NCBI GenBank assembly: GCA_963718875.1
Contig: OY970378.1
Span: forward strand, 68,396 to 132,395
Direction of reading: 5' to 3'
Source: Candidatus Parcubacteria bacterium
GTDB taxonomy: Bacteria; Patescibacteriota; Saccharimonadia; UBA4664; JBIOIQ01
DNA length: 64,000 nucleotides
Shown here: positions 19,249 to 46,631 of the stretch, in pieces
Layout of the letters: each line of letters starts with the position of its first letter
Numbering within the stretch: position 1 is the stretch's first letter
Notes under the pieces: model-generated
The model's database searches: none
Seen by the model: only the letters and a program-made list of their open reading frames with translations
What the model was told of the DNA's origin: nothing
Made by a program: the position numbers and the translations under genes

Positions 19249-20388
19249 ATGAAAATTGTAATTGATGGGCGCATGCTGGCCTGGACTGGTATTGGGCGAT
19301 ATACCAGTGAGTTAATCCAAAATTTGGCAAAGATAGACAAAGACAACGACTATACCGTTTTACTTGATCCAAAAGATGCAGATAAGCTTGGTGCGTTACC
19401 GACCAACTTTGAAAAAAGAGTTGTAAATATTAGGCCTTATGGATTACAAGAACAGCTGGTGTTGCCATTTATTCTGTACAAACTACGGCCAGACTTGGTT
19501 CATTTTGTGCATTTTACCGCTCCTCCTTTGTATTTTGGTAAACGGGCGGTAACTGTTCATGACCTGACTCTGGTACGCTACAAGACACATCGTGGAACAG
19601 GATTTAAGCGTCTTGTATTTGAACTTAAGTACTGGATTATGCGCTTTCTATTACGCTGCTCAGTAATGCGAGCTGACGCGGTTTTGACTGATACCGAATG
19701 GGTTAAGCGAGATATTTTGAGCTTTTATAGGCATTCGGTTTTCCGCAAGCTTTTAGAAGGTAAAATAACTGCTACCTTGCTATCAATTAGCTCTTCAGCT
19801 ACACAGATTGATGCTAGTAAGGCAAGCATTAAGATTGATGAACCGTTTTTGCTCTATGTCGGAAACTATTACCCCAATAAAAATATATTCACTTTGTTAA
19901 GCGTTTTTGAACGGCTACGAGCCGCCCGACCCAAACTAAGGCTGGTATTAGTCGGCCCCAAGGATTATTTTTTAGAGCAAGCGAAACTCCAAATCACAAA
20001 AATGGGACTAAACGACTCCGTGACTGTAACCGGGTGGATCACAGATGCGGACTTGGCCTGGTTATATAAAAAAGCGGCGTTATTTGTATTTCCGTCGCTA
20101 TCCGAAGGGTTTGGGATGCCACCGCTAGAAGCTATGGCTGCTGGCACCCCAGTAATATCGTCTGATTCAACTTGCCTGCCAGAGGTTTTGGGAGATGCGG
20201 CGGCTTACCTTGACCCTACTGATCCCCAAGACATGGAAACTAAAATAGATGCCCTGCTAAAAAACGACAAAGAGTTAGGGCGGCTGCGTAAAGCCGGTTA
20301 TGAGCGGGTTAAGCTTTTTTCTTGGCACCGAACAGCTAAGCAGACTCTGGATGTGTACCGGAAGGTTCTTTTCGCGAATAATGAATAA
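19249..20388 (+). CDS. glycosyltransferase family 4
   Basis: [38 protein letters not shown]. Confidence 0.8.
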   Translation: MKIVIDGRMLAWTGIGRYTSELIQNLAKIDKDNDYTVLLDPKDADKLGALPTNFEKRVVNIRPYGLQEQLVLPFILYKLRPDLVHFVHFTAPPLYFGKRAVTVHDLTLVRYKTHRGTGFKRLVFELKYWIMRFLLRCSVMRADAVLTDTEWVKRDILSFYRHSVFRKLLEGKITATLLSISSSATQIDASKASIKIDEPFLLYVGNYYPNKNIFTLLSVFERLRAARPKLRLVLVGPKDYFLEQAKLQITKMGLNDSVTVTGWITDADLAWLYKKAALFVFPSLSEGFGMPPLEAMAAGTPVISSDSTCLPEVLGDAAAYLDPTDPQDMETKIDALLKNDKELGRLRKAGYERVKLFSWHRTAKQTLDVYRKVLFANNE

Positions 20389-20563
20389 GGAATTATAAAT
20401 TAGGTTTACCGAAGCGCTTGCCTGAGCTTGTCGAATACTAAGTAGGCGCCGTGCCCAGCCCTTCGACCCTTCGATTACGCTCAGGCCAGGCAGGCTCAGG
20501 GAGTAAAATGGAGGCATTGTAAGCGCCGTGATTCTTGATTCTTAATTCATGATTCGTTAGTGC

Positions 20564-26533: not shown

Positions 26534-26624
26534 TTTCCAAACCAACCATCTTTTTGTGATTACCTTGGAAACTCCTCCATCGCCGCCACGTTAATGAGGA
26601 CGATGGAGGGTAGAACCGCGGCCG

Positions 26625-27771: not shown

Positions 27772-27963
27772 CAGCTTTTGAAGAACGTCCTGAGCACAAA
27801 AAACAGTAAATATTGGGTGATGCGATCAGTTGGTTATAGATATTACACTATGAATCATAATTTGTCAAGTATTGAAAGGTTATTTTTTCTTTATATCTGT
27901 TAATTTATAAAATAACTCGGATAAATTGACGTATATATGAATAAATGATAATATTTAATTGTT

Positions 27964-29986: not shown

Positions 29987-30029
29987 CTGTAATCCCTAGC
30001 CCCTAAGTTCTAGAGGGTATAATATCCTT

Positions 30030-31349: not shown

Positions 31350-31392
31350 GTTTTATAGAGTCTTTAGAATCCGTAACGTCCTAAAGTAGTTC
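31350..31392. terminator. hairpin between convergent genes
   Basis: CCGTAACG-(21 nt)-CGTTACGG inverted repeat between the DUF721 stop (31347) and the minus-strand stop (31392). Confidence 0.3.
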
Positions 31393-34045: not shown

Positions 34046-34048
34046 AGA

Positions 34049-36679
34049 TTAACTTCCGGTTACCGACCAGTGCCAAGGTTCGTTGGGAAGCAAGCCCTTA
34101 AGCCCATAGGTCCCAGCATTTTGTGATAACCAGGCAAAGCATTGATCTCCCCTGGACACTAGGCTGCCATTGCAGCTGAAGTCGATGGCGAGTCCCATTT
34201 GGTGGTTTGATTTACCTGGTGGGGCTACCTCTGCCCCACCTGAATCTCCGTTAAAAAGGTCCTGTTGGTGTTGCATGGTACGGAAGGTGCTGGTAGCCGC
34301 AATAGGTAGGTTGGCCGCTTTGGCGGCTGTTGCCAGGGCCAGGAAGGCTCCTGAGGCTCGCGAATTAACTAAGGCTAGGCCGTTGGCGCCGTTGATGTAG
34401 TATGGATCCCCTGGCGAGCTTTCTCTACTGCTACTCGCTAGGTTGGGGAGGGTGCAAAGTTTGATTTGGATGGGCGCCTCATTGTGATAGCCAGTATGGT
34501 TGCCGACTTCATTGGTTCCGGGAGAGCAGCCAATATTATCCGAGGGCTGGAAAACAGTGTTTAAATCAATTGTTCCACCAGCCGTAGTGCTGCTGCCGCC
34601 TACACCCGCAGCTGTAAGAAGAGGGTTTTTGTTTTTTAAACGCATAATGCCATGGATAACCATTTGGTCGGCTTTATATTGGCCGTAGCGTTGGGCGTCA
34701 ATGTCGCCTGCAAGGTTGTCGCATTTAGAGTTTGGGCCATCAATAATTCGTTGGGCGTAATCCTCAGAACTGCCGCCGTAGCACTTGTCATACTTACTCT
34801 TGAATGTTGCCAAGTTAGCTTCAATGTACTTGGCGTTTTCAAGTACTGGCCAGGTGGGAGCGTTGAGCGGAATCCCTACAAATGGTTGGCCAGTTACCGG
34901 GTCAACTGGGTCGGCCGCAAAGGCAGTTGGGGGTGAAACGGTGGCTAGGGCAAGCCGTCCGCTAGATAGTGCAAACTTGGCTGGACTAAAAATGGTCCCA
35001 AAAAAGTGGTTAATTTGCGCCAACATTCCGGAGGGTGATGATGGAATGGCAAACAAGGATTGGGTAAGTACGGAGCGAGGGTTGTTGGTATCAACTAGGC
35101 GCCAGGCAAGCCCTTTTTTCTTATCTAGAGCCAATCGCTCTTGGTGGATGACGGTTTCAAGAGCAACGTTTTCTGCAGGGGTGAGTTGTTTGCAACCGGC
35201 GCTGAAACAGGCGTTGTCGGCAATTATTTTGGTGCCTCCAGACATATAGTTGCCCCAGGCAAGTGGGCTGGCATTGGCTGATATGGCGGTGTGGGCCATT
35301 TGGGAAACTACGTGTACAGCCAAAGCTTTGCCGGCGATTCCAGCAAAAACTACCGCCCCGCCCGCTACAATCGATCCGACTACAGCTCCAACAGTGACGT
35401 TAACACCCGGAGTAAGAACAGCTCCTACTAAAAGCACTACTCCAGCGCCCGCTACCGCAAATTGCACGCCGGGCTTTAGGATGTAGGAACAAGCTTCTTC
35501 AATTTTAGGAATGCCTAAAAAGAAATTGAGAGCCTTGCCAACATTACCACCCGGTGGAGTGTTGGTTGGCTTGGCTTCATCACTAAGGCCTGGGCCGGTA
35601 ATCGGTTGCCCTGAAGCTTGCTGCGCGCCAGCGCTGTTTACAAAAGATTCTTGGCTGTTATCGAGCTTACTAGCAACGGCGCCAATGCCCGCTAATGGAA
35701 CTTGTCCTTGTTTTTGCCCATCGGCCCAAGCGTAAACCGACTCAGCGGCTTTTACGAGGCCTTCGGCCTTGTAAGCAATATAGGCTTTTTTGGAGGCACC
35801 CCAAATGTCTATGGCAATGCAGGCGATGGTCACTTTTGAAAAAATACTCAGGGCTTTACCAGTTGATTCAATTAACCTGGTAGCCGTGTTTTCAACCACA
35901 ACTTTGGGGTCACCGCCGTCTTGTACACCCTTTTTTGTTTCATCAACTGTGTCTTTAACCTCAGCGTCTGGAATTCCGCCTGGTCCCTTGCCTGGATCGT
36001 CAACTTTTGACTGAAGATCTTTGTCGACCGCCGCTTTTATGTCCGCGTCTGGTTTGGTGGTGTCTATGCTCGCTACCGAACGGTCTCTGACTTTGAATCT
36101 TGAATCGGTGTCGGCTCCTGGTGAACCCGATAAGTCTGATTTCATGTATGCGTCAACGTCGGCCTGGAGTTTTATTCGTTCCGGCGAGTCAAGATCAACT
36201 GGCAAGGGACCTTCGCCTTTAGCTTGAGATAGTTGGAGGTCCAGCGGGGCTTCTTTGGGTGCTGGGGCTTGACCTGCTTTTCCGGCTGGCACTGCTCTAG
36301 CGGCTTCCAGCGAGGCAGCAATGCGTTGGGATACAACTCGATTAAATTTGGCAAAGCGGTAAGAAATAAACAGCTCTTTTACGTGGTTAAGCTTAAACAA
36401 AAACAAGAACATAAAAAACAATATAAACGGTGCTAGAATTCCAATAATGCCGCCAACGCCAGCAATCATTTTCCAGCGTTTACTCAAGCCATTGATTTTG
36501 CCCTTCATGTTTTGGGCTTTCCCTTTGGATGATGCGCCTAGGCCAATTCCGTTTGCGCTTCCTCCGCCTCCGGGTTGGCTATCTTGGGCAAACTGATCGC
36601 GTGCGTCGTTTGAGGCAGTTTGTGGGGCCGACTCGTCTTGGGCGGTTGTTTCGTCTTCTGGTAGGGTACCCAGTGCCAT
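34049..36679 (-). CDS. large membrane protein with C-terminal M15 (VanY/LAS-type) peptidoglycan peptidase domain
   Basis: 876 aa; TM helix near residue 70, long Asp/Lys-rich linker, a Gly/Ala/Val-rich hydrophobic block, and C-terminal SNHQMGLAIDF...EPWHW characteristic of peptidase M15. Confidence 0.6.
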   Translation of the reverse strand: MALGTLPEDETTAQDESAPQTASNDARDQFAQDSQPGGGGSANGIGLGASSKGKAQNMKGKINGLSKRWKMIAGVGGIIGILAPFILFFMFLFLFKLNHVKELFISYRFAKFNRVVSQRIAASLEAARAVPAGKAGQAPAPKEAPLDLQLSQAKGEGPLPVDLDSPERIKLQADVDAYMKSDLSGSPGADTDSRFKVRDRSVASIDTTKPDADIKAAVDKDLQSKVDDPGKGPGGIPDAEVKDTVDETKKGVQDGGDPKVVVENTATRLIESTGKALSIFSKVTIACIAIDIWGASKKAYIAYKAEGLVKAAESVYAWADGQKQGQVPLAGIGAVASKLDNSQESFVNSAGAQQASGQPITGPGLSDEAKPTNTPPGGNVGKALNFFLGIPKIEEACSYILKPGVQFAVAGAGVVLLVGAVLTPGVNVTVGAVVGSIVAGGAVVFAGIAGKALAVHVVSQMAHTAISANASPLAWGNYMSGGTKIIADNACFSAGCKQLTPAENVALETVIHQERLALDKKKGLAWRLVDTNNPRSVLTQSLFAIPSSPSGMLAQINHFFGTIFSPAKFALSSGRLALATVSPPTAFAADPVDPVTGQPFVGIPLNAPTWPVLENAKYIEANLATFKSKYDKCYGGSSEDYAQRIIDGPNSKCDNLAGDIDAQRYGQYKADQMVIHGIMRLKNKNPLLTAAGVGGSSTTAGGTIDLNTVFQPSDNIGCSPGTNEVGNHTGYHNEAPIQIKLCTLPNLASSSRESSPGDPYYINGANGLALVNSRASGAFLALATAAKAANLPIAATSTFRTMQHQQDLFNGDSGGAEVAPPGKSNHQMGLAIDFSCNGSLVSRGDQCFAWLSQNAGTYGLKGLLPNEPWHWSVTGS

Positions 36680-36680
36680 A

Positions 36681-38549
36681 CTAGGCTACCTCGCTGCCTT
36701 GCGTGTAGCGTTCTTCAATTGATGGCGGATTGCTTTGGATCAAGTCGGACTCCGTGGCGGATGCTAAGATACGAATAATAACGTGGTTGAGGCCAGCAAA
36801 AAACAAACCTTCCCCTACTGGGAACTGGCTTAAACGGGCTTTTTCAGCTCCCGTTAGCTTAAAGGTGTCGGCTACAATATCTACGGCTGATGGGGCTTGT
36901 TTTAAAAGTAATTGCAAAGACGAGTTGGCAACTACAGCCCGGCCTAGCCTGGAACTAAGGAAGTCTTCGACGTCTTGGGAAATTGTAGTTAGGCCTAGTG
37001 AATACTTGCGGGCGCGCTTGGCGATTGAGAACATAAAGTTGGCTGAGTCGTCGTAGCGCATTAATTGCCAGGCTTCATCGACAATCAAAATACGTTTGCG
37101 CTTGTCGGATTTAACCTTATTCCAGATGTAATTCAGGATAATGTACATGGCGACTGGCCGCAGCTCGTCTTCGAGGTCGCGAATGTTAAACACTACAAAT
37201 TGGTTATTGATGTCGACATTTGATTGCTGGCTAAAAATACCAGAAAACGTACCGGTAGTGTATTTACGCAACCGTTGGGCTAGTGCTGGTCCATTACCGC
37301 TCATGCTTTCGAGCATACTATAAAGGTCATTCATGGTTGGCGGTGTAGCAGCATGGGTTAGAGGATCATTAGTAATGCCAGCTTTGGCGTAGGTGTTAAT
37401 GATGGCCACATCTAAGTCAGCGTCTTCGGCCGGAGTAAGTGCCCCATAATTGGCTTGGCTGGCGGTTTGAGTGCCAGCTTGGGCTTGGGCGCCACCCATC
37501 ATCAACCGCAGTAACCCATGGAGAGTAATAATATTGGCCCGGAGAGAATTATCGGCATCTTCGTCATCGAGAACCCGTGGCAGGTCAAATGGGTTGAGGC
37601 GAGTATCGGAGGCTAAGGAGACGCGCAGGTAGCTCCCCCCTACGGCATCACTGAGGGTGCGATATTCGTCTTCTGGGTCAATAATTATGACTTCAGTACC
37701 AAGCATTAGTGAGCGCAAAGCCTCTAGTTTTACAGCAAAACTTTTACCAGCGCCAGATTTGGCAAATACTACCATGTTGGCGTTTTCCAGACTAAAGCGG
37801 TCAAACAATACTAGTCCGTTGTTGTGGCGGTTAAGTCCATAAAGCACGCCTTCGTTGCGTGATAACTCGGTGGAGGTAAAAGGAAAACAGGTAGAAATAG
37901 CGCCGGTGCTCATATTGCGGCTAATCTGGAGTTGGTCGCTAGCAATCGGCAAAGTTGAATTAAAGGCTTGTTCCATTTGCAGAGAAGCCGGCTTGGTGTA
38001 GACAAGTGATTGGCCAAACATGCCTTCGATTTTGCGTTGCATGGTGGTAAGTTCTTCTAGGCTATCAGCGTACATTGTGACATAGAGGCCAAAGCGGAAA
38101 AAACGTTCCTCCCCAACTTGTAGTTTGTCGCGTAGCTCTTCGGCATCGACTATGGCTGCCTCTAGCCCCGGGTCGCGTACCCGGCCTTTTTCTTGGTTGA
38201 TGGTGTAGGAAGCTTGCAGCTCCCCTACCTTGCGGCGTAAATTGTTAAGGACCACTTGGCTCTCAACTGGGTAAATGTTGATACTGATGTCGAGTATTTC
38301 ATCGAGGTTAATGAGAGGGGAAAGCCAGCCGGTAAAAATTTGGCGGGGGTAGCCGTAAACGTACAACGTTCGGGCAAAGCGCTTTCCCAGCTGAAGGTAG
38401 GACGACTCAATTTTAAGAGACGGCGGCGCAATGAGGTCACGCATAGTAACAATTCCCTGACGGTAAACTGTCTCGGCTTCTTGCTGATCGCGGGCTTTTT
38501 GGCCTTCAGCCAGCATCACTGGATCGACTTTTGGTTTAAATAGACCCAC
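36681..38549 (-). CDS. virB4: VirB4/TrbE-family type IV secretion ATPase (ATPase domain ORF)
   Basis: Walker A VVFAKSGAGKSFA, Walker B ILIVDEAWQLM, plus conserved TISQDVEDF / FAGLNH C-terminal motifs. Confidence 0.85.
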   Translation of the reverse strand: MGLFKPKVDPVMLAEGQKARDQQEAETVYRQGIVTMRDLIAPPSLKIESSYLQLGKRFARTLYVYGYPRQIFTGWLSPLINLDEILDISINIYPVESQVVLNNLRRKVGELQASYTINQEKGRVRDPGLEAAIVDAEELRDKLQVGEERFFRFGLYVTMYADSLEELTTMQRKIEGMFGQSLVYTKPASLQMEQAFNSTLPIASDQLQISRNMSTGAISTCFPFTSTELSRNEGVLYGLNRHNNGLVLFDRFSLENANMVVFAKSGAGKSFAVKLEALRSLMLGTEVIIIDPEDEYRTLSDAVGGSYLRVSLASDTRLNPFDLPRVLDDEDADNSLRANIITLHGLLRLMMGGAQAQAGTQTASQANYGALTPAEDADLDVAIINTYAKAGITNDPLTHAATPPTMNDLYSMLESMSGNGPALAQRLRKYTTGTFSGIFSQQSNVDINNQFVVFNIRDLEDELRPVAMYIILNYIWNKVKSDKRKRILIVDEAWQLMRYDDSANFMFSIAKRARKYSLGLTTISQDVEDFLSSRLGRAVVANSSLQLLLKQAPSAVDIVADTFKLTGAEKARLSQFPVGEGLFFAGLNHVIIRILASATESDLIQSNPPSIEERYTQGSEVA

Positions 38550-38562
38550 TGGGAACCTCCGC

Positions 38563-38667
38563 GAATAATGAATAATGAATCATGAATAAAGGGAAACTGT
38601 CTTGCGTTTTGACCCTATAATTCTTAATTCTTAATTCGTGATTCTTAATTCGTGATTCGTGATTCGT
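38563..38667. repeat. inverted arrays of AT-rich heptamer repeats (GAATAAT-like / TRATTCK) in the virB4N-virB4C gap
   Basis: GAATAATGAATAATGAATCATGAATAAAG (38563-38591) and TAATTCTTAATTCTTAATTCGTGATTCTTAATTCGTGATTCGTGATTCG (38627-38667) are reverse complements of the same 7-bp family. Confidence 0.7.
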
Positions 38668-38674
38668 TTGCATA

Positions 38675-39433
38675 TTATTGTCCAAATGGTCCTGCTAATG
38701 GTGGTGGCGGGGCTTGACCTACGCCCTTGGTGACGGCAGCTGTTTGGAGTTGGCTAGCGTCAATCATTTTTTGGTTAGGGGCAACGTCTGGGTTGTAGGA
38801 AGCATAGTAGAGGTCAATGAGCTCTTGGGTATTGAGCGGGATGGCTCTAAGTCCCATTTGCGCGAGCCCCGCTGATACTAGCTGTACGCGTTGGGCTAGT
38901 TCGGATTTGGCTTTCTCGAAATCAGCGGCTGTAACAGTTATAACGGGTACCGGTTTAAAGATATTGGCGAGTCCTGAAGCCACATTGATTTTTGAAGGGT
39001 CAAGATGGGGGTAAAACGGCACCACAATAAAAAACAACTTGTCCATAATGTTGACTTCTTCGATCAAGCCCTTGATGTTAGCTATGTAATCGTCCATAAG
39101 CTCGGCTAAAAGTGCATTGCCTTGGTCTGAGCGAAGCTTACCAAGGTTGTCGATGTAGCTATCGAGGTCAATTTTTTGGGATTTAATTACAATTTGAAGC
39201 GGGAAATGTAAAGAGTTTAAAAATCCTTGATAAGCATATTCTACGGCGTCTTGTTCTTGCTGGCTCATCAGGTCAAAATTGATGGCGCTGGTCAAAATGA
39301 CTGCGCGCAAACTGCCATCGCGCAACACCACAACTCCATCTTTAATTTCAGATATCAGGAGGCTGCCTTGGGTGCTTTTGGTGCTGGCAGTTACAGGATG
39401 GGCTGGTTGGTTGATGGGGGGAGTTTTTGCCAT
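38675..39433 (-). CDS. VirB4 N-terminal-domain protein (separate ORF)
   Basis: 252 aa; LRDGSLRAVILTSAINFDLMSQQEQDAVEYAYQGFLNSLHFPLQIVIKSQKIDL resembles the N-terminal domain of VirB4/TraC-type proteins. A 125-bp gap to the ATPase ORF is filled by heptamer repeats. Confidence 0.5.
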   Translation of the reverse strand: MAKTPPINQPAHPVTASTKSTQGSLLISEIKDGVVVLRDGSLRAVILTSAINFDLMSQQEQDAVEYAYQGFLNSLHFPLQIVIKSQKIDLDSYIDNLGKLRSDQGNALLAELMDDYIANIKGLIEEVNIMDKLFFIVVPFYPHLDPSKINVASGLANIFKPVPVITVTAADFEKAKSELAQRVQLVSAGLAQMGLRAIPLNTQELIDLYYASYNPDVAPNQKMIDASQLQTAAVTKGVGQAPPPPLAGPFGQ

Positions 39434-39573
39434 TAAACATTAACCTTAGTTAAGTAAGAAACAAGCTACAAGATACAAGAAACAGATAGCTTCAATATTC
39501 AAATTTTCAAACAAGTGGAAAGTTTTTGTCGCTTGGGTATTTGTATCTTGTCTTTTGTGTCTTGGAACTTGCC

Positions 39574-40599
39574 CTAGGCTGCGGGCTGATCTGGATGTAT
39601 CGCTACGGCTTGGCCTTCCACAAGTACTGCCGGGCTGGTGGCCTGGGCGGCAATTTGGCTCACCTGGCTCACCTTCAGGTCGGGCGTCTCCATGGCTCTC
39701 TTTAGTATATCAGCAATGGGATTTGTAGTCATCTCGCTTATGTTGGCTTGGGCTGTTTGGACCACGGCTGCAGAGGGTACGATGGCTGGCGGAATGGGTG
39801 CTGACTGCATTACAGCTGTTGGAGCAGTTTCTGGACTGGGCGTAGGAACTGAATTAGGTTGGACTGACAGAGTCGGAAGGTTTTGACTTTGAGTGGGGGC
39901 TGTTGGCTTGGTAAGGTCGCCGGGGTGAGCGTGGATTGGTGAGGGAAGTTCTTCGCGGATTTTTTGCATGACCTCGTCGTGAATACTTTTTTCGGAGTCC
40001 TCAATCAGGACGCTCAAGTTGCGGGCAGACTGATTGTTATCAAGGTCGAGCATGTCGTCTTCCATGTTGACTACGGATGTGGGTCGAATAGGAGCTATGT
40101 CGAGTTCATTGGTCTTTAAACGCCCGTCCAAGTCTATTACCGGATGTTCTGTGGGCTCCTGTACCTCTGGCTGCTTGCTTTCCCATCCCCTGGTATCAAC
40201 TATTTGGGCTAATTTTTCGAGCTGGCCGCGGACTTCGCGTGGGTCGCGGTGGGCTTCTTCGGGTTTGGGCAATGGTTGCTCAATTTTGAACACTTCTGCA
40301 ACATCCTCCTTAAGCCAGATGCGCTGACGAGGCTTAAACCAAAAGTTAACCAGTGCTAAAAAGTAGGCTTCAAATGGCTGGCCCTCACGTTGGTAAAGGC
40401 CAAGCAGTAGCATCATAGCTGTGGGTGGGACTCCAATAAGTACAAAAAGTATTAGGGCTTTTTTGAATATCTGAAAAGTCAGCAGTCCGTAGGCTACGCC
40501 AATAACGGCGTAAATGAACTGCTTAAGGGTTAAAACCCCAATTATCTTATCTTCGGCTTCGACGTCCTGAGGGACTTTATACTGACCCATTAAGCACAA
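39574..40599 (-). CDS. VirB3-like small-membrane-domain protein with long Pro-rich C-terminal extension
   Basis: The first ~100 aa hold two TM helices (LKQFIYAVIGVAYGLLTF / LILFVLIGVPPTAMMLLLG) immediately upstream of virB4, as for VirB3/PrgI; the remainder is an acidic/proline-rich low-complexity tail. Confidence 0.45.
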   Translation of the reverse strand: MCLMGQYKVPQDVEAEDKIIGVLTLKQFIYAVIGVAYGLLTFQIFKKALILFVLIGVPPTAMMLLLGLYQREGQPFEAYFLALVNFWFKPRQRIWLKEDVAEVFKIEQPLPKPEEAHRDPREVRGQLEKLAQIVDTRGWESKQPEVQEPTEHPVIDLDGRLKTNELDIAPIRPTSVVNMEDDMLDLDNNQSARNLSVLIEDSEKSIHDEVMQKIREELPSPIHAHPGDLTKPTAPTQSQNLPTLSVQPNSVPTPSPETAPTAVMQSAPIPPAIVPSAAVVQTAQANISEMTTNPIADILKRAMETPDLKVSQVSQIAAQATSPAVLVEGQAVAIHPDQPAA

Positions 40600-40700
40600 G
40601 TATAACTCATCTTGGTAATGAACTACGAATATTGAATAAGGAATTATGAATGAAGAGACTTGGAGTTGACAAAAGTTGAACGATTTGATAAGTTAAACGT

Positions 40701-40931
40701 ATGAAAACCGTTATACTTTCAAGTAAATACCAAGTGGTTATTCCTAAAGAGATTAGGGAGTCATTGAATCTTAAGCCTGGGCAAAAACTGCATGTGCAAA
40801 AGGGTAAGAACGGTGCTGTGGAGATTCAAACAAAATCGGCTTTGGATGAGTTATATGGTAGCGTGCCAGGCGTGTGGGGAGATGACGCAGTGGCTTACAT
40901 TCGGAAACAACGCGATGATTGGGAAGGCTAG
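40701..40931 (+). CDS. vapB: AbrB/MazE-fold antitoxin (VapB-like)
   Basis: 76 aa, MKTVILSSKYQVVIPKEIRESLNLKPGQKL swapped-hairpin motif. Confidence 0.65.
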   Translation: MKTVILSSKYQVVIPKEIRESLNLKPGQKLHVQKGKNGAVEIQTKSALDELYGSVPGVWGDDAVAYIRKQRDDWEG

Positions 40932-40964
40932 TTGTTGCTTTCTGCGGATGAACAGTAGGCAAAA

Positions 40965-41390
40965 TTGCTGATAGCTCTCGACGCCAATATTTTTATCTAC
41001 GTTCTTGAACGTGACTATCAGTTTGGGCCGCAGGCTTTAGCTATCTTAAAAGCAGCCGAGTTGGGTACAATCGATGCTGTTACCTCTGAGCTGGTGTATC
41101 TGGAAACACTGGCAAACAGTAAACTGCAGGCTAGCGATGTTAATCGCATCAATCGATTGCTGGAACTTTCAGGAGTAGTATTTGAGCCAATTGAAAAACC
41201 GGTTGTTTTGGAGGCCGCAAGATTAAGGCGCATTTATGGGATTAAAACCCCCGACGCCATTCATATTGCCAGCGCACTTGGTGTAAAGGCTACCCATTTT
41301 GTAACCAACGACAAGCAGTTGTTGAGGCTCAAGATTGCTGGACTTGAAATAGTTTCTCTCGATCAGGCTCTTTTGTTGAGTGAAGCATGA
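40965..41390 (+). CDS. vapC: PIN-domain toxin VapC
   Basis: 141 aa; LDANIFIY ... ETLAN ... TNDK acidic residues spaced as in PIN domains. Confidence 0.65.
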   Translation: MLIALDANIFIYVLERDYQFGPQALAILKAAELGTIDAVTSELVYLETLANSKLQASDVNRINRLLELSGVVFEPIEKPVVLEAARLRRIYGIKTPDAIHIASALGVKATHFVTNDKQLLRLKIAGLEIVSLDQALLLSEA

Positions 41391-41490
41391 GGAAGAGTAA
41401 ATTCCTAATACCTAAACTCGAAATCCGAAGGGATTAACCAAAGTCTAATATTTTAAACATTTGCGCTTGAGTTATCCCTTCGGATTTCCC

Positions 41491-43572
41491 TTAAGGGGTT
41501 CCCGGCAGTCCTTGGTGTTCGATCTTACCGGTGTCAGCAATGTAGTCGTTAAAGAAGTCAACGCCAGTCATATCCCGATTGTCGAACCTTATGCTTTCTG
41601 CTGCCAAGATATTGTGGAATTCGTTGTCGGTTCGAACCTTATCTTTGAAATACGCAACGAGTTGTTGGTCAACCTTGGAGCGTTGATCAGCTGAACTAGC
41701 GATAGTACGGAAGTTGCTGAGCGCCTTTGATACACGGTCTTTTTTGCCTGCAGCAACGTCGGCTGGGTTAGCATCGGTTCCAACAGGAGCCATGATACGG
41801 TTGAAATATTTGTCGGCACCTGAACCATGGATTGATGCTACCTGAGAGGCGCTTAAACCATCATAGGCAACATGTTTTTTGCCTGGGTTAAGCATAGGAA
41901 TGGCTTGAATGGCTTGGGGCATGACGCCACTAGAGCCCATGCCTCGGAACCAGGTATCAGCTGATTCATTGCCAGTAGGTAGGCCCAAACCAGCAATGTA
42001 CTCACCTTTGTAATTGTCTCTCGTAGGATCAAAAATTTGAGCATGAATTTTATTTAGCTCAACGTTGCCGCCTTGCTTAGCAATTTGACCTATAGCTTGA
42101 GCTTGCATGGCTTTGGTAATTTTTTCCTTTTTTGTTCTACCATCTAGCCCGGTGTAAATAAAATCATTGCCGTGTCCTGCCAAAACAACTTTTTTCATTA
42201 AGTCATCATTACTAAGCCCAAGATCATCGAATCTGATGCCCCAGTCTTTCATTTGGGCGCCAATGGCAGCGTCATAGCCTTTAGCTAGTCGACGTCGACC
42301 AGGTTGTCCTAGGCCGGGTTGCCCAGCTCGGGCTCGTCCCAATGCGCGTTCCCATTTATGGCTCGCGTCACGTTGGGCAATAAAGCCCTTTTCCTGACGT
42401 GATTCTTTGATATCTTTCTTTAACTGGCCACCAAGAAAGCCTTTGGCACGATCCTGAGAGCCAAACACCCTACCGGAAACAGTTCCCATAATGCCACTGG
42501 CGATCTTGAAAGTTGCTGGTATGGCCAGGAACACTAGGATGGGGATGAGGCTGGCAAAAATAACGTTAATTTCGTGCGAGCCAAAAATGCCGTCGGTCTC
42601 GCTAGCAACTCGGGCTAGAAACCCACCGATGGAAAGCAGGATAACAATTAGCGGGTACACTAAAATAACCCGAACCATGTTTTTTACCCACTGCTTAAAG
42701 TAAACTTCGGTGTTGGGCAATACCCAAGCGGCAAAAGCCAGTGGTGAGAGTACAATTAAAACAGCAATAATTAGTTGTCTTAGGGCCAGCGTAAAGAATA
42801 CCCCCAGCACACTGATGATGAATCCACCTAGCATCAAGAGGATGGCCGGCCAGGTCAAAATAACTCCGGCTATGACAGCGGTTAGTCCGGCTATACCAAA
42901 AGTGATTATCGAACCGACATTAAAAATACCGTGAGTTATGTCTTGAGAGGTTCCGGCGGTTGTTCCTAACTGGCTCATGATGCTACCTATGCCGGCACCA
43001 GAAACATTACCGATATCAATGATGAAGGCGGTTACAAAGAAAGATACTTGCACTCCAATGGCGGCAATTATGAGTTTGGGTAAGAGGCTTTTAAGGGCGT
43101 ATGAGCCTTCAGATGAAACCATGTTTCCAAAAATTAAGGCTAGGAAAATGAGGATAAACATTACATCGGCCAAGTTTCGAATAGCTTTCCAAGCTTCGTA
43201 GAGGCCGCTGTCTTGGGTTAGCGGCTTGGTTTCAAGCATATCAATTACGAGCTTGCTAATCTTGGCCACGGTTTCAACGCCAGCATTAATAAGCGGGCAA
43301 ACAATCCAGCCCAAGCCTCCCCCGCTACATGATGGTTTGGTGTAGCTACTAGGGTCGGAATCGCCATTACCGCCGGGAAGAATTGGTGCAGTGCTAGTTG
43401 GGCTTGTAGAAGTGGGTGATGTTGTGGAGGTTGTTCCTGGTGTAGTGGTTGTGGTTGTACCAGTTGAGGTGGTTGCGGGTGCGGTTTGGGCGTACACTAA
43501 GCTCGCTTGACTCATGCAGAGCCAGGCGATAAGTAAGGTGATTAAACCGGTTGCGAACCTTCGAATGGACAT
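41491..43572 (-). CDS. VirB6/TrbL-family polytopic T4SS membrane protein with Thr-rich N-terminal region
   Basis: 693 aa; signal peptide, TTSTGTTTTTTPGTTSTTSPTSTSPTST linker, then six or more TM helices and a C-terminal cytoplasmic domain. Confidence 0.65.
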   Translation of the reverse strand: MSIRRFATGLITLLIAWLCMSQASLVYAQTAPATTSTGTTTTTTPGTTSTTSPTSTSPTSTAPILPGGNGDSDPSSYTKPSCSGGGLGWIVCPLINAGVETVAKISKLVIDMLETKPLTQDSGLYEAWKAIRNLADVMFILIFLALIFGNMVSSEGSYALKSLLPKLIIAAIGVQVSFFVTAFIIDIGNVSGAGIGSIMSQLGTTAGTSQDITHGIFNVGSIITFGIAGLTAVIAGVILTWPAILLMLGGFIISVLGVFFTLALRQLIIAVLIVLSPLAFAAWVLPNTEVYFKQWVKNMVRVILVYPLIVILLSIGGFLARVASETDGIFGSHEINVIFASLIPILVFLAIPATFKIASGIMGTVSGRVFGSQDRAKGFLGGQLKKDIKESRQEKGFIAQRDASHKWERALGRARAGQPGLGQPGRRRLAKGYDAAIGAQMKDWGIRFDDLGLSNDDLMKKVVLAGHGNDFIYTGLDGRTKKEKITKAMQAQAIGQIAKQGGNVELNKIHAQIFDPTRDNYKGEYIAGLGLPTGNESADTWFRGMGSSGVMPQAIQAIPMLNPGKKHVAYDGLSASQVASIHGSGADKYFNRIMAPVGTDANPADVAAGKKDRVSKALSNFRTIASSADQRSKVDQQLVAYFKDKVRTDNEFHNILAAESIRFDNRDMTGVDFFNDYIADTGKIEHQGLPGTP

Positions 43573-43807
43573 TGCGGTACGCTCTTCCTTGTAAGCAAGT
43601 TGACAATTGTGTCAACGATCGCGAGAATACTTTCACGCGAATTACAAAGTATACCACATTTATGGCGCTTATGGAAGAGTTTTATCTGTTGGAAGCACAA
43701 GCGTTTAAGTTTGTGAGAGGAAAACAAAACACAAGCATTTCGAGGGAAGCTCCCTCTTATTGCTTGTGTTTTGTTTTTTGCCTGATCACAAGTCCAGATT
43801 AGACTTA

Positions 43808-46522
43808 TCACGGCGGTGGCGGTGGCGGTGGCGGTGGCGGTGGCGGTGGCGGTGGCGGTGGCGGTGGCGGTGGCGGTGGCGGTGGCGGTGGCGGTGGCGG
43901 TGGCGGTGGCGGTGGCGGTGGCGGTGGCGGTGGCGGTGGCGGTGGCGGTGGCGGTGGCGGTGGCGGTGGCGGTGGCGGTGGCGGTGGCGGTGGCGGGCCT
44001 GATACAGAAGGTGGGGGCGCCTTAAGAGTTTTTGATGCACGGTCAACATGGTTGTCAAGGAAGTCTTGTAGGCTCATTTCATTACCGTTGAGAGTAATTT
44101 TGTGTGCCCGGGTGTTAACAGTAGGGTCTGACTCAAGAGCTAGAAGTGCTTCTACGCCCTTGCTTGAAAAGTTGGTTCTAGAAGTGGAATCTTCCATGAC
44201 TTGAGCGATTTGACCCATAAGGGGGTCAATTCTGCCTTCACTTGCAGCAAGCTCAACAGCTTCGGCTTGGCGCTCTTTAGAAAAATTGGCAAGCGCTTGA
44301 CCATTGGCTCCTCGGAGTTGCTCGTAGCCGTCAGGACGGAAGCCAGATTTTGCAGCCCAAGAACCATTGGATCCTTCGTGAGCATTCGACCATAGTTGCG
44401 CGGCTTTTGTTGCGTTGATCCTTCCCCCAGTTTTTGCTTTCAGCTTATTTGGGTCAAATTTACCATTTGCGCCTTGAAGACCTGCAGAAGTATGTACCAC
44501 TGCTCCAGTTTCGTCTTTCCAGTCGCCGCCTTGCATAAGTTTGGCGTATTCTGAGCTCCCTCCATTGCGCATTAGTCTTTCAAGAGCTGCTTGATACATT
44601 TGATCGTCCATTTTGGTTCCATCTGGTAATTCTCCCTTGGCCAAGGCTAAACCTAAGGCCACGTTGTCCGGGGTAAGACGCTTAAGCGTCTCGTCGTGGT
44701 CTTTGCGTCTAGCGGCCTCGGCGGCACCGATACTGGCATTCCTTCTTCGTTGGCCTGTCGGCCCATAGCTAAAAGCATTGCCCGATCCGACCCGACCCAG
44801 AACTTTTTTTATGCGGCCAGAGTCTGGGTCGCCCATCATAAGAGCGGCTTTTTCTCGGCTGGATTCTTTGGCATTTTTCATCAAGCCATTACTTCTTAGG
44901 CCCTTGCTCATTTTGCTGGCTCTCCCCTGAATGGCGCCGCTGACTGCTCCCATAAGCGTTCCCGAGGCCTTAAGGGTTTTTAATACCAAGAAAAATAAAA
45001 TGATGGGACCTAAGGATGACATAACTTGTTGGATTGGATCGCTTGCATTCCCCACCAAAGCCGGAAAGTCACTAATGATTTTGCCAGCGTAAATAAGAAT
45101 TACGATCATAGGGAACATTAGTAGTAGCTTAATTAAATTGGTGGACCACATTTTGAATAACTTTTCGGTATTGGGTAGTACCCAGGCAGCAAGTGCAATC
45201 GGAGACATTAATACCAAGAGATAGAGAATTATTATTCTGGCTTCGAGAGTAACAAATACTGCCAGGATCGAAACTAATGCACTTGCTAGTAAAAGTAACA
45301 AGGGTATTACAAGCCCTACAGCAACAGCGGCTGTGCCGGCAACAGCACCAATAGCCACAGCTTCTAGCCCTCCAAAGAATTGAATGGTACCACTATTGCC
45401 GCTACTAACGTCGTTTAAGGTGCTAAGTGGGGCTAAGAGTCCGCCTATGCCTCGTCCTAAAACATTGGTAAAGTCGATGGCAAAGGCCATAAGTACAAAT
45501 GAAAATTGCACCAAAATAACTGATAGTACTAGTCGTGGTAAAACTTTTTTAATGGTGTAGGCGTCTAAACCTAGGGCGTTACTTCCCAAAATAGCAAAGA
45601 ATATTAAGACAAAAAACACGTTGGCAATGTTTCGAATAATTACCCAGGCTTGGTAAACTGTGGTTGCGTTGCCACTACTATCTTCTGATGCCAGCGGGGC
45701 TGATTGGAGATAATTCAAAATTCTTGTTTCCAAGAAATTGACGGACCCTGTGGCCATGGAAATTAGCGGGCAAAGAATCCAACCTAACCCGCCTTGAATG
45801 TTGCATTTATCTTTAATGGAACCTGAATTTGAGGAGGCAAGACTAACTGAAGCATCGGGCGGCGTATTGCTGATAAGGACGGTACGCGTATCATTTGATT
45901 CGCATGCGTAGGTATTAAAAAATCCCACAATGGTTCTTTGAGTTTTCCTAGGGGTGAAGCGGCCAGTTTCACTGTTAGGGGCGGTTTGGACGGTGCTATG
46001 GCAGTCGCCACTGTTTTTTTGGCCGTAGATATTGGGTTCTGCTGAATTGTTTTGAAAAATTTCGGCCCCAATTTCATCATGTTGTCCGGTTTTAGCCCCT
46101 TTTAGCTCAAAATCGTAATTTGTGAAGGCCGGAGTTAAGGTGTCACCACTGGTCCTATAAAAGTAGACAGATGCTCTGGCTACTTCGCCCATTTCGAGCG
46201 GACGCTCACCGTCATATATGCAGTCAGAGTTGGCGGGATTGGAATGAAAGGAAAATAGGGTGGCTTTTGAGCTAGGATTTGGACTGCCCTCAAACCGTCC
46301 AATCCAGTTTGAGCAGGTTTTGTCGCCATTCAAATAATATTGACGTCCACTATCACCCAGAATGTTATCGATATAGACATCGTTGCCAACCTTGATATGG
46401 GCAGCGTCCAGCCAGGTGGCGTCAGCTGCATAAGCTGGAGTGGTAGGTAGGAGGACGGCGATCATGGGGATCAACACCAATAACATAAACGCTAATGCGC
46501 TTTTTTGCCTCAACCGGTTCAT
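43808..46522 (-). CDS. VirB6/TrbL-family polytopic T4SS membrane protein with large N-terminal ectodomain and ~60-residue C-terminal polyproline tail
   Basis: 904 aa; signal peptide, ~220-aa extracellular domain, multi-TM core paralogous to 41491-43572, C-terminal KAPPPSVSG(P)n encoded by the microsatellite. Confidence 0.65.
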   Translation of the reverse strand: MNRLRQKSALAFMLLVLIPMIAVLLPTTPAYAADATWLDAAHIKVGNDVYIDNILGDSGRQYYLNGDKTCSNWIGRFEGSPNPSSKATLFSFHSNPANSDCIYDGERPLEMGEVARASVYFYRTSGDTLTPAFTNYDFELKGAKTGQHDEIGAEIFQNNSAEPNIYGQKNSGDCHSTVQTAPNSETGRFTPRKTQRTIVGFFNTYACESNDTRTVLISNTPPDASVSLASSNSGSIKDKCNIQGGLGWILCPLISMATGSVNFLETRILNYLQSAPLASEDSSGNATTVYQAWVIIRNIANVFFVLIFFAILGSNALGLDAYTIKKVLPRLVLSVILVQFSFVLMAFAIDFTNVLGRGIGGLLAPLSTLNDVSSGNSGTIQFFGGLEAVAIGAVAGTAAVAVGLVIPLLLLLASALVSILAVFVTLEARIIILYLLVLMSPIALAAWVLPNTEKLFKMWSTNLIKLLLMFPMIVILIYAGKIISDFPALVGNASDPIQQVMSSLGPIILFFLVLKTLKASGTLMGAVSGAIQGRASKMSKGLRSNGLMKNAKESSREKAALMMGDPDSGRIKKVLGRVGSGNAFSYGPTGQRRRNASIGAAEAARRKDHDETLKRLTPDNVALGLALAKGELPDGTKMDDQMYQAALERLMRNGGSSEYAKLMQGGDWKDETGAVVHTSAGLQGANGKFDPNKLKAKTGGRINATKAAQLWSNAHEGSNGSWAAKSGFRPDGYEQLRGANGQALANFSKERQAEAVELAASEGRIDPLMGQIAQVMEDSTSRTNFSSKGVEALLALESDPTVNTRAHKITLNGNEMSLQDFLDNHVDRASKTLKAPPPSVSGPPPPPPPPPPPPPPPPPPPPPPPPPPPPPPPPPPPPPPPPPPPPPPPPPPPPPPPPPPPPPP
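43816..43995. repeat. perfect (GGTGGC)n hexanucleotide microsatellite, ~30 units
   Basis: About 180 bp of uninterrupted GGTGGC repeats; on the minus strand the TrbL-like ORF frame reads CCA CCG = Pro-Pro. The other frames give the artefactual RW/AV/HR ORFs in the track. Confidence 0.95.
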
Positions 46523-46594
46523 GAATACAGTTTAGCATAAAACGCTAATGGTTATGTCGCTTACTGATAACGCAACCAAAGTTATGTCCTGCCT

Positions 46595-46624
46595 TTGACA
46601 TTGTGGTTTTGCTTCGGATATGAT
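46595..46624 (+). promoter_or_regulatory. candidate sigma70-type promoter for the pilin array
   Basis: TTGACA (46595-46600), 18-nt spacer, TATGAT (46619-46624), 8 nt upstream of the first pilin ATG, in the divergent region between the TrbL gene and the pilin genes. Confidence 0.35.
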
Positions 46625-46631
46625 CTAGCTA

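What the first reader, a model, noticed from the sequence alone, without database searches (positions are those of the whole stretch)
38550..39433. VirB4 encoded as two ORFs separated by a 125-bp heptamer-repeat inverted structure
ORF 38675-39433 resembles the VirB4 N-terminal domain and ORF 36681-38549 is the Walker A/B ATPase domain. The gap holds two oppositely oriented arrays of the same AT-rich 7-mer (GAATAAT... versus ...TGATTCG) that can form a long hairpin in the mRNA. A good GGAGG Shine-Dalgarno sits just 5' of the second ORF. This is either a natively split VirB4 with a regulatory hairpin or attenuator between the halves, or a gene disrupted by insertion of a repeat element.
Basis: partly seen in the sequence, partly recalled or inferred. 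Interest (0 to 1): 0.6.

Follow-up and report, generated by a model that had tools for sequence, protein, structure and literature searches.

The report
Split VirB4 with translated repeat insert
In this Saccharimonadia (CPR) genome the secretion ATPase VirB4 is encoded as two genes, which is normal and already described for the group; what is unusual is a recent 125-base insertion of 7-base repeats between them, which a small reading frame spans and so probably keeps translation of the two halves linked.

Summary
ORF 38675-39433(-) and ORF 36681-38549(-) are separated by 125 nt. That gap holds seven A[C/A]GAAT[C/T] heptamers, a 31-nt spacer, four ATTCNNN heptamers, then GGAGG and a GTG start.

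The split is native, conserved and already published. The upstream ORF is the TrsD/TraC-like protein, a remote homologue of the VirB4 N-terminus. The downstream ORF is a TrsE-type VirB4. This is the arrangement of pSK41/pGO1 and of Patescibacteria generally (PMC12102498).

In 31 of 34 related loci the two genes overlap or lie within 2 nt of each other, usually as TAATG, with a Shine-Dalgarno motif inside the end of trsD. The repeat structure is therefore a recent insertion into a translationally coupled junction. Only the closest relative (86% identity) shares it, and there both arms carry different heptamers.

The sense-strand hairpin in this window is no more stable than shuffled sequence (z about -1). 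No terminator follows it, so an attenuator is not supported.

New here: a 45-codon ORF runs from 1 nt after the trsD stop to 11 nt past the virB4 start. The three other insertion-bearing loci also have an open bridging frame (joint chance about 1e-3). I infer a relay ORF that preserves coupling. Interest is moderate.

The parts
38675..39433 (-). trsD-like gene (252 aa; Pfam PF26593 'TraC-like'), equivalent to the first ~175 residues of a full-length VirB4
   Evidence: NCBIfam hits: TrsD/TraD 4e-8, VirB4_plasma 2e-7, and CD1110 profile positions 118-174. PF26593 is listed for it and all homologues. 3485 and 2923 homologues were found, almost all stand-alone proteins of 200-450 aa. It aligns to residues 12-228 of the fused 898-aa P0238. 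Top 8 Foldseek PDB hits are TrwK/VirB4, from a weak model of pLDDT 57.
36681..38549 (-). virB4/trsE-type ATPase (622 aa, GTG start). It contains the rest of the VirB4 N-terminal domain plus the Walker A (GAGKS) and Walker B (ILIVDEAW) C-terminal domain.
   Evidence: NF045971 CD1110-family VirB4 scores 366 bits against a cut-off of 325, over profile positions 179-730. Pfam P-loop_TraG, AAA_10 and CagE_TrbE_VirB match. Residues 229-601 match the 4AG5 VirB4 C-terminal domain at 3e-44. It aligns end to end with pSK41 TrsE at 8e-44.
38550..38674 (-). 125-nt lineage-specific insertion in the trsD-virB4 junction
   Evidence: Absent from 31 of 34 related loci, where the genes overlap or are at most 2 nt apart. 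Absent from relatives at 76-84% identity. A homologous 93-nt insertion is present in L019 at 86% identity. The same 125-nt gap occurs in an independent assembly from ERR12037361.
38619..38667 (-). 5' arm: seven tandem heptamers A[C/A]GAAT[C/T]
   Evidence: Sequence; TRF; pattern search.
38560..38587 (-). 3' arm: four tandem heptamers ATTCNNN, inverted relative to the 5' arm. The last unit runs into the Shine-Dalgarno GGAGG (38560-38556).
   Evidence: Sequence; TRF; inverted repeat I1, 30 nt and 80% complementary.
38536..38673 (-). Bridging mini-ORF of 45 codons from its ATG. The ATG lies 1 nt after the trsD TAA (TAAtATG). The ORF runs through both arrays and the SD and stops at a TAA 11 nt past the virB4 GTG.
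   Evidence: the ORF listing gives 38536..38685(-), 49 aa from an upstream TTG. Equivalent open frames exist in L019, L013 and L014. Shuffle probabilities are 0.18, 0.14, 0.12 and 0.37, product 1.1e-3.
39434..39573 (-). Second intercistronic inverted heptamer structure, between the prgI-like gene and trsD. It reads CAAGACA CAAAAGA CAAGATA ... TGTTTCT TGTATCT TGTAGCT TGTTTCT.
   Evidence: Sequence. Lag-7 score is 17 of 21. Fold z is -2.4 sense and -3.4 antisense. It is conserved in L019. Most relatives have no spacer here.
40620..40651 (+). Single GAATNNN array (ATTCNNN on the operon's sense strand). It overlaps the -10 hexamer of the best promoter-like site upstream of the prgI-like gene.
   Evidence: Pattern search; promoter-like TTGTCA-18-CATAAT at 40672-40643 on the minus strand; sequence.
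20376..20555 (.). Related element between convergent genes (a glycosyltransferase and mnmE). GAATNNN units at the left and ATTCNNN units at the right flank a centre of about 130 nt. Its ends are 87-95% identical to the ends of the virB4-gap element.
   Evidence: gene identities.

Best explanation
The locus is the conserved prgI-trsD-virB4 core of the Patescibacteria (monoderm-type, MPF-FATA-like) type IV secretion system.

VirB4 is natively encoded in two cistrons. trsD corresponds to about the first 175 residues of a full-length VirB4. A TrsE-type virB4 encodes the rest of the N-terminal domain plus the ATPase. Ancestrally the two cistrons are translationally coupled: the stop and start codons overlap by one base (TAATG, TAGTG or TGATG), and the Shine-Dalgarno motif lies inside the last codons of trsD.

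In the sub-lineage of this window a small palindromic element landed exactly in that junction. Its arms are tandem heptamers, and they turn over by slippage. It survives because it does not break the coupling, for three reasons:
- It is an open reading frame. Ribosomes finishing trsD can restart 1 nt downstream.
- Translating through the arrays would melt whatever structure they form.
- The ribosome terminates 11 nt past the virB4 start, next to a strong GGAGG at the right end of the insert, where it can reinitiate.

Shown: the split, its conservation, the overlapping ancestral junction, the recency of the insertion, the repeat anatomy, and the open bridging frame in all four insertion-bearing loci. 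Inferred: that the mini-ORF is translated and acts as a relay. The peptide itself is probably irrelevant, since the four peptides are unrelated in sequence.
For: - Split and identity. Published in PMC12102498.
- Ancestral coupling: 29 of 34 related junctions overlap (28 by 1 nt, one by 4 nt) and three more have gaps of 0-2 nt. An SD-like motif lies upstream in 27 of the 28 overlapping junctions scored.
- Recency: no insertion in relatives at 76-84% identity. A homologous insertion exists in L019 at 86% identity. It shares a GGTCAAA loop motif and the same mini-ORF stop, but its heptamers are GAAGYAC/GTRCTYC in both arms instead of GAATNNN/ATTCNNN.
- Bridging ORFs: window 45 codons, L019 34, L013 45, L014 48. 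In L013 and L014 the ORF begins at the left TAATG and ends in a second TAATG that overlaps the virB4 start. Chance of an open frame per locus is 0.12-0.37, product 1.1e-3.
- SD relocation: the window's trsD end has lost its embedded GGAG (GGACCATTTGGACAATAA), and a GGAGG now sits at the right edge of the insert.
- Not a terminator or promoter. No Rfam family.
Against: - Only four insertion-bearing loci are available, and the window and L019 are not independent events. With three independent events the joint probability is only about 0.006-0.008.
- Open frames are common in the GC-rich L013 and L014 inserts. In L014 the virB4 frame is also open across the insert.
- There are no expression or ribosome-profiling data.
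- The mini-ORF ATG has no good SD of its own, so the model depends on termination-reinitiation.
- The strong GGAGG could drive independent initiation of virB4 without any relay.
- All the hairpins fold better on the antisense strand, which the relay model does not explain. The A+C-rich composition of the sense strand could account for it.
Confidence: 0.55

Rival explanations
1. Neutral passenger. The heptamer palindrome is a selfish or slippage-generated intergenic repeat (REP-, MITE- or SSR-like) with no role. virB4 is simply translated independently from the new GGAGG/GTG, and the open frame across the insert is coincidence.
For: - The window's sense-strand hairpin is no better than shuffles.
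- Related GAAT-heptamer elements sit at unrelated places: between convergent genes at 20376-20555 and in a promoter region at 40620-40651.
- The closest relative's contig carries a different REP-like palindrome in its intergenic regions, so these genomes accumulate lineage-specific palindromes.
- The per-locus chance of an open frame is not small, 0.12-0.37.
Against: - All four of four inserts are open in the frame that starts at the retained stop-adjacent ATG.
- Two of them end in a perfect TAATG overlap with virB4.
- Every insert carries an SD at its right end.
- The junction is otherwise under very strong constraint, with 31 of 34 loci overlapping or within 2 nt.
Confidence: 0.28
2. Post-transcriptional control element. 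The heptamer arrays form an RNA hairpin, or bind a repeat-recognising RNA-binding protein. Either way they set the TrsD:VirB4 ratio or mRNA stability, through RNase III processing or 3'-end protection as with REP elements. Repeat-number changes could make the setting tunable, as in the H. influenzae hmw1A heptamer SSR hairpin.
For: - The homologous element in L019 is a very stable hairpin: -38.8 kcal/mol, z = -5.9 on the sense strand.
- Both arms changed heptamer sequence together between the window and L019. That needs either selection for pairing or arm-to-arm conversion.
- A second inverted heptamer structure sits at the preceding junction of the same operon and is conserved in L019.
- An ATTC array lies in the operon's promoter/5' leader.
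- A precedent exists for a heptamer SSR hairpin processed by RNase III (PMC12721329).
Against: - In this window the sense hairpin is weak (z about -1).
- The units are imperfect, so slippage should be slow.
- Two independent assemblies have the same 125-nt gap, so no length variation was seen.
- No candidate binding protein or RNase III site is identified.
- If the mini-ORF is translated, the hairpin is melted much of the time.
Confidence: 0.15
3. The structure works on the other strand or at the DNA level. It could be an antisense RNA hairpin, a cruciform or single-stranded-DNA hairpin, or a recognition site for a hairpin-specific (Y1/RAYT-type) transposase.
For: In every case tested the antisense strand folds better than the sense strand. 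Window gap: -32.8 against -21.8 kcal/mol. L019: -47.8 against -38.8. prgI-trsD element: -37.2 against -32.0. L014: -62.1 against -51.2. The mismatches are A.C on the sense strand and G.U on the antisense strand.
Against: - The sense strand of this region is A+C-rich. That alone turns imperfect pairs into A.C on the sense strand and G.U on the other strand.
- No promoter-like site drives an antisense transcript across the gap beyond chance level.
- No transposase gene was identified.
Confidence: 0.07

Closest known systems
TrsD + TrsE (VirB4) of staphylococcal conjugative plasmids pSK41/pGO1 (MPF-FATA), and the TrsD-VirB4 pair reported across Patescibacteria (PMC12102498)
   Same: - Same two-cistron VirB4. 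pSK41 has trsD (227 aa) 14 nt upstream of a 672-aa DUF87/VirB4 gene.
- ORF2 aligns end to end with TrsE, E = 8e-44.
- The ORF1 family profile aligns collinearly with TrsD: hhalign E = 4e-4, NCBIfam TrsD HMM 4e-8.
- Same neighbourhood: a PrgI/VirB3-like gene upstream, and membrane protein and cell-wall hydrolase genes downstream.
- The paper reports TrsD as the most abundant T4SS component in Patescibacteria. 1,664 homologues lie next to VirB4, and it is essential in Ca. Southlakia epibionticum.
   Different: - ORF1 scores far below the curated TrsD cut-off (33 against 200 bits), so it is a distant member.
- The Saccharimonadia junction is normally a 1-nt overlap, not a 14-nt spacer.
- This window adds a 125-nt repeat insert and a bridging mini-ORF, which the paper does not mention in the passages read.
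Haemophilus influenzae hmw1A 5'-UTR heptamer SSR hairpin (PMC12721329)
   Same: Tandem 7-nt repeats are transcribed upstream of a ribosome-binding site. They form one arm of a long hairpin that affects expression of the downstream gene.
   Different: - In hmw the repeats are perfect (ATCTTTC)n and phase-variable. They pair with a G-rich non-repeat arm and are cut by RNase III.
- Here both arms are imperfect heptamer arrays.
- The element is intercistronic and lies inside a small ORF.
- No length variation or processing has been shown.
Intergenic heptamer direct repeats: cyanobacterial STRR sequences (my own knowledge, Mazel et al. 1990) and TAACTGA repeats of Beggiatoaceae, Cyanobacteria and Bacteroidetes (PMC4679880)
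   Same: Short arrays of 2-7 tandem heptamers are confined to intergenic regions, often just upstream of start codons. A role in translation has been suggested.
   Different: - The unit sequences differ.
- Those arrays are almost always direct only: one indirect repeat among 170 sets in the Guaymas genome.
- Here the arrays come as inverted pairs around a spacer, and in a CPR bacterium.
REP/BIME and MITE-like small palindromic intergenic elements
   Same: The elements are small (about 100-190 nt), palindromic, intergenic and present in several related copies in one genome. They are lineage-specific and tolerated between genes of an operon.
   Different: - No target-site duplication is visible in the window. 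L013 and L014 do have 7-8 bp direct repeats at their inserts.
- The arms are built of tandem heptamers rather than a fixed sequence.
- No associated transposase is known.
Translational coupling by termination-reinitiation, and synthetic two-cistron 'bicistronic design' leaders (my own knowledge: Adhin and van Duin 1990; Schoner et al. 1986; Mutalik et al. 2013)
   Same: A short leader ORF carries the downstream gene's SD inside its coding sequence. Its stop overlaps or abuts the downstream start: TAATG in L013 and L014, and a stop 11 nt downstream of the start in the window and L019. Translating ribosomes would unwind local structure.
   Different: It is natural, arose by insertion into an existing overlap junction, and is untested experimentally.

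Membership tests
VirB4/TrsE-type conjugative ATPase (ORF2) | Scores above the curated cut-off of a VirB4 family model | tested here: met
   NF045971 (CD1110-family VirB4) scores 366.4 bits against a cut-off of 325. Pfam P-loop_TraG scores 92.9 against 25.8.
VirB4/TrsE-type conjugative ATPase (ORF2) | Walker A and Walker B motifs in a C-terminal domain homologous to a solved VirB4 C-terminal domain | tested here: met
   GAGKS and ILIVDEAW are present in the translation. Residues 229-601 match 4AG5 at 2.8e-44.
Full-length single-polypeptide VirB4 | N-terminal ~175 residues and the ATPase in one reading frame | tested here: not met
   There are two ORFs here and in all 34 related loci with both genes. 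Only one fused form, P0238 of 898 aa, appears among the top 150 cluster representatives.
TrsD/TraD family (ORF1) | Match to the family HMM at its curated cut-off | tested here: not met
   NF041427 gives E = 4.1e-8 but only 33.3 bits against a cut-off of 200. This is remote homology, not curated membership. Pfam PF26593 'TraC-like' is recorded for it and its homologues in the precomputed tables, but my own Pfam scan returned nothing.
TrsD/TraD family (ORF1) | Protein of about 200-250 aa encoded immediately upstream of a VirB4 that lacks its N-terminus | tested here: met
   This is the arrangement in the window and in 34 loci. The same arrangement occurs in pSK41.
TrsD/TraD family (ORF1) | Homology or fold similarity to the VirB4 N-terminal region | tested here: met
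   Profile tiling. Collinear match to residues 12-228 of the fused P0238. Top 8 Foldseek hits are TrwK/VirB4, prob 0.87-0.99, but E is only 6e-3 to 9e-2 and the model has pLDDT 57.
Intrinsic terminator or attenuator | Stable G+C-rich stem followed by a U-tract on the sense strand | tested here: not met
   No terminator-like site falls in 38550-38674 on the minus strand. The sense fold has z = -0.84 to -1.06. The hairpin is followed by GGAGGUUCCCAGUG.
Phase-variable simple sequence repeat | Perfect tandem units whose number differs between strains or reads | tested here: inconclusive
   The units are imperfect, 85-90% matches. Two assemblies have the same 125-nt gap. Arm lengths and unit sequences do differ between the window (7+4 units) and L019 (4+4 units). 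Read-level data were not available.
MITE or REP-like mobile palindrome | Several copies with shared terminal inverted repeats in one genome | tested here: met
   The ends of the gap element match the ends of the element at 20376-20555 at 87-95% over 21-32 nt. They also match the array at 40620-40651.
MITE or REP-like mobile palindrome | Target-site duplication and an empty site in relatives | tested here: inconclusive
   Empty sites exist in 31 relatives. No clear duplication flanks the window insert. L013 (GTCTAATG) and L014 (TAATGGG) have direct repeats.
MITE or REP-like mobile palindrome | Cognate transposase (RAYT, or an IS family) in the genome | not testable with these tools
   Only 64 kb of the genome is available.
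Rfam RNA families | Match at gathering score | tested here: not met
   The only hit in the window is a tRNA at 50945-51017.

The most novel reading that the evidence does not exclude
Saccharimonadia carry a family of self-expanding 'heptamer palindromes' that can colonise even the 1-nt stop/start overlaps of essential operons. They are retained there only when they form a translatable relay ORF, a natural counterpart of engineered bicistronic couplers. The GAAU/AUUC arrays sit in the operon leader, before virB4 and at 3' ends. They might additionally be read by a repeat-binding RNA factor or RNase III to tune T4SS stoichiometry, with repeat turnover providing evolvable or phase-variable control.
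Probability: 0.15. Interest if true: 0.65.

Novelty: new variant of a known kind. Interest (0 to 1): 0.4.

Why it matters
The T4SS-like system is one of the few gene sets shown to be essential for the epibiotic life of Saccharibacteria (cited in PMC12102498). TrsD and VirB4 are two pieces of what is one polypeptide elsewhere, so their 1:1 production probably matters.

The near-universal TAATG overlap documents that constraint. The rare insertions are natural experiments on it: each one keeps an open frame and supplies its own ribosome-binding site. If confirmed, this gives a simple rule for what can be inserted into coupled junctions. It would also be an example of a relay ORF arising by selection.

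The split itself is not news. Annotators should label the upstream gene trsD (VirB4 N-terminal-like) rather than treat the pair as a pseudogene.

Tried and rejected
- Attenuator or terminator reading: rejected. No terminator-like site lies in the gap, and the sense fold is not better than shuffles.
- Internal promoter in the gap: none on the sense strand, and the overall count is at chance level.
- Known RNA family: none.
- Sequence search of the ORF1 profile against PDB chains: only noise, E at least 0.15.
- AlphaFold2 model of ORF1: poor, pLDDT 57. It was used only as weak supporting evidence.
- Pseudogene or disrupted-gene reading: rejected, because the split is conserved in thousands of homologues and both ORFs are intact.
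- Metagenome scan for closer relatives carrying the insert: nothing closer than 73% identity.
- BLAST of the four inserts against all held loci: no copies outside their own genomes.
- A bridging ORF in the prgI-trsD element (39434-39573): on reading the sequence I saw no start near the prgI stop and in-frame stops. It was not tabulated, so the relay idea applies only to the trsD-virB4 junction.
- Antisense-strand selection: considered. The better antisense folds are equally explained by the A+C-rich sense strand, so the idea is kept only as a minor rival.
- GC skew does not change sign near dnaA. I therefore could not assign leading and lagging strands with confidence.
Full report
**What is there**

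All relevant genes lie on the minus strand. ORF1 is 38675-39433 (252 aa, ATG) and ORF2 is 36681-38549 (622 aa, GTG). The 125-nt gap (38550-38674), read on the coding strand, runs as follows:
- TAA, then tATGCAA;
- seven heptamers (ACGAATC x2, ACGAATT, AAGAATC, ACGAATT, AAGAATT x2; 38667-38619);
- a 31-nt spacer;
- four heptamers (ATTCATG, ATTCATT x2, ATTCGCG; 38587-38560);
- GGAGG, six bases, then GTG.

Tandem Repeats Finder and the repeat finder confirm both arrays and a 30-nt inverted repeat that is 80% complementary. The periodicity is not chance. Three consecutive GAATNNN units occur 15 times in the window against 0.52 expected. Lag-7 arrays number six, against none at lags 5 or 8-11.

The hairpin is less convincing. 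The sense-strand fold has z = -0.84 to -1.06 against dinucleotide shuffles. No terminator-like or promoter-like site lies in the gap on the sense strand, and no Rfam family matches.

**The two ORFs are a natively split VirB4, and this is already known**

ORF2 passes the curated cut-off of the CD1110-family VirB4 model (366 bits against 325), over profile positions 179-730. ORF1 residues 164-220 match positions 118-174 of the same profile, so the two ORFs tile one VirB4.

ORF2 residues 229-601 match the solved VirB4 C-terminal domain 4AG5. Residues 53-202 match the CagE/TrbE/VirB N-terminal family. The split therefore lies inside the N-terminal domain, not between that domain and the ATPase.

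ORF1 hits the TrsD/TraD model at 4e-8, which is well below its curated cut-off. It also carries the Pfam 'TraC-like' domain in the precomputed tables.

ORF1 has 3485 word-indexed homologues and 2923 cluster representatives. Nearly all are stand-alone proteins of 200-450 aa from Saccharimonadia and other Patescibacteria. One representative, P0238 (898 aa), is a fusion: residues 12-228 align with ORF1 and residues 322-895 with ORF2.

The AlphaFold model of ORF1 is poor (pLDDT 57). Even so, its eight best PDB matches are all TrwK/VirB4 of R388.

In pSK41, trsD (227 aa) sits 14 nt upstream of the 672-aa VirB4-like trsE. ORF2 aligns end to end with TrsE, and the ORF1 profile aligns collinearly with TrsD.

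[quoted passage not shown] It also reports that TrsD is the most abundant T4SS component in Patescibacteria, that it usually lies next to virB4, and that it is essential in Ca. Southlakia epibionticum. The 'split VirB4' is therefore correct but not new.

**The junction is normally a one-base overlap**

I collected 34 related loci that hold both genes, from genome, metagenome and assembly collections. The junctions break down as follows:

| Junction type | Loci |
|---|---|
| Stop and start overlap by one base (TAATG, TAGTG, TGATG) | 28 |
| Overlap by four bases | 1 |
| Gap of 0-2 nt | 3 |
| Insertion | 3 |

An SD-like GGAG/GAGG motif lies in the last codons of trsD in 27 of the 28 overlapping junctions scored. 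This is the classic arrangement for translational coupling. It fits two proteins that are halves of one ancestral polypeptide.

**The repeat structure is a recent insertion**

Relatives at 76-84% ORF1 identity lack it. Only the closest relative (L019, 86%) has an insert at the same place. It is 93 nt long, shares a GGTCAAA loop motif and has the same downstream stop for the bridging frame.

In L019 the heptamers are GAAGTAC/GAAGCAC on the left and GTACTYC/GTGCTCC on the right. Both arms have thus replaced their unit sequence together. That needs unit turnover by slippage, plus either selection for pairing or arm-to-arm conversion.

The L019 version is a strong hairpin (-38.8 kcal/mol, z = -5.9 sense). 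The window's version has decayed to short (mostly 4-6 bp) helices built on the GAAU/AUUC core.

Two distant relatives have unrelated inserts at exactly the same junction. L014 carries a 154-nt palindrome flanked by TAATGGG. L013 carries 136 nt flanked by GTCTAATG.

**The gap is spanned by a reading frame**

In the window an ATG lies 1 nt after the trsD stop (TAAtATG). It opens a 45-codon frame that runs through both arrays and the SD and ends at a TAA 11 nt past the virB4 GTG.
- L019 has the equivalent 34-codon frame. It starts at the retained TAATG and ends at the same TAA.
- In L013 (45 codons) and L014 (48 codons) the frame starts at the left TAATG and ends in a second TAATG that overlaps the virB4 start.

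The four peptides are unrelated. Dinucleotide shuffles of each insert leave the frame open in 18%, 14%, 12% and 37% of trials. The product is 1.1e-3, or about 0.006-0.008 if the window and L019 are counted as one event.

Every insert also carries an SD 6-9 nt before the virB4 start. The window's trsD end has meanwhile lost its embedded GGAG.

My reading is that only insertions keeping a translatable bridge are tolerated here. The mini-ORF would work as a relay. Ribosomes leaving trsD restart at once, unwind the repeat structure and terminate at or just past the virB4 start, where they reinitiate. That step is inferred, not shown.

**Context**

The same architecture, inverted heptamer arrays around a spacer, occurs at the previous junction of the operon (39434-39573, between the prgI-like gene and trsD). 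The heptamer there is different (CAAGANA / TNTCTTG), and the structure is conserved in L019. Most relatives have no spacer at that junction either.

Two more sites use the GAAT-type unit:
- A palindromic element lies between convergent genes at 20376-20555. Its ends are 87-95% identical to the ends of the gap element.
- A single array at 40620-40651 overlaps the -10 hexamer of the best promoter-like site for the operon.

The other 18 loci first fetched (131 kb) hold only one lag-7 array, the one in L019. The L019 contig instead carries its own REP-like palindrome, GCGACAGGTnnnACCTGTCGC, three times. These genomes therefore accumulate lineage-specific small palindromes in their few intergenic spaces.

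**Unexplained**

Every hairpin tested folds better on the antisense strand, because the mismatches are A.C on the sense strand and G.U on the other. The sense strand is A+C-rich, which may be enough to explain this. A function on the other strand or in single-stranded DNA is not excluded.

**Verdict**

The split belongs to a known kind (TrsD + VirB4). The insert with its bridging ORF is a new variant worth a systematic census, but the present statistical support is moderate and there is no expression evidence.

Noticed in passing
window 39434-39573: The spacer between the prgI-like gene and trsD has the same architecture as the virB4 gap: inverted arrays of a heptamer around a spacer. The unit differs (CAAGACA/CAAAAGA/CAAGATA ... 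TGTTTCT/TGTATCT/TGTAGCT). It is conserved in the closest relative, and most relatives have no spacer at this junction.
   Followed up: partly
window 20376-20555: A palindromic element with a centre of about 130 nt lies between the convergent glycosyltransferase and mnmE genes. Its GAATNNN and ATTCNNN ends are 87-95% identical to the ends of the virB4-gap element, so this is a small dispersed repeat family.
   Followed up: partly
window 40620-40651: A single array of four or five GAATNNN units (ATTCNNN on the operon's sense strand) overlaps the -10 hexamer of the best promoter-like site (TTGTCA-18-CATAAT, 40672-40643, minus strand) upstream of the prgI-like gene. It lies in the divergent region shared with a vapB/vapC-like pair (40701-41390).
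   Followed up: no
window 20901-20932: A heptamer array, AGTCTTG x4.3, lies inside the mnmE coding region (20564-21955, minus strand). This is an in-frame 21-nt periodicity within a conserved GTPase gene.
   Followed up: no
window 43812-43996: A perfect (GGCGGT)x30.8 repeat encodes a C-terminal run of about 60 prolines in the 904-aa VirB6-like membrane protein (43808-46522, minus strand). It could be an extended spacer or stalk, or an assembly-sensitive repeat.
   Followed up: no
window 20564-31106: mnmE (20564-21955), dnaA (25074-26462), dnaN (28874-29986) and recF (30030-31106) lie just upstream of the T4SS cluster (31392-47336). This agrees with the published remark that the Patescibacteria T4SS often sits near the replication origin. 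GC skew does not change sign there.
   Followed up: partly
L039 114-134, 9493-9513, 9548-9568 (also L039 170-190 and 9466-9510): The closest relative's contig carries a different REP-like palindrome, GCGACAGGTnnnACCTGTCGC, three times in the intergenic regions flanking the T4SS operon. Tandem CCATGCGACAG units lie beside one copy. The palindrome is absent from the window.
   Followed up: partly
L013 4742-4880 and L014 3490-3646: Independent insertions lie at exactly the same trsD-virB4 junction in distant relatives. They are flanked by direct repeats that include the TAATG overlap (GTCTAATG; TAATGGG). L014's insert is a long palindrome whose outer ends (GTACGAATC...GATTCGCA) resemble the outer heptamers of the window's insert.
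   Followed up: partly
window 41391-41490: A 15-bp perfect inverted repeat (GAAATCCGAAGGGAT ... ATCCCTTCGGATTTC) with a loop of about 37 nt lies between the convergent PIN-domain gene and the 693-aa VirB6-like gene. It may be a bidirectional terminator.
   Followed up: no
P0238 (898 aa, representative library): A rare fused TrsD-VirB4 protein has a linker of about 90 residues between the two parts. It was the only fusion among the top 150 cluster representatives. Its organism and gene context were not examined.
   Followed up: partly
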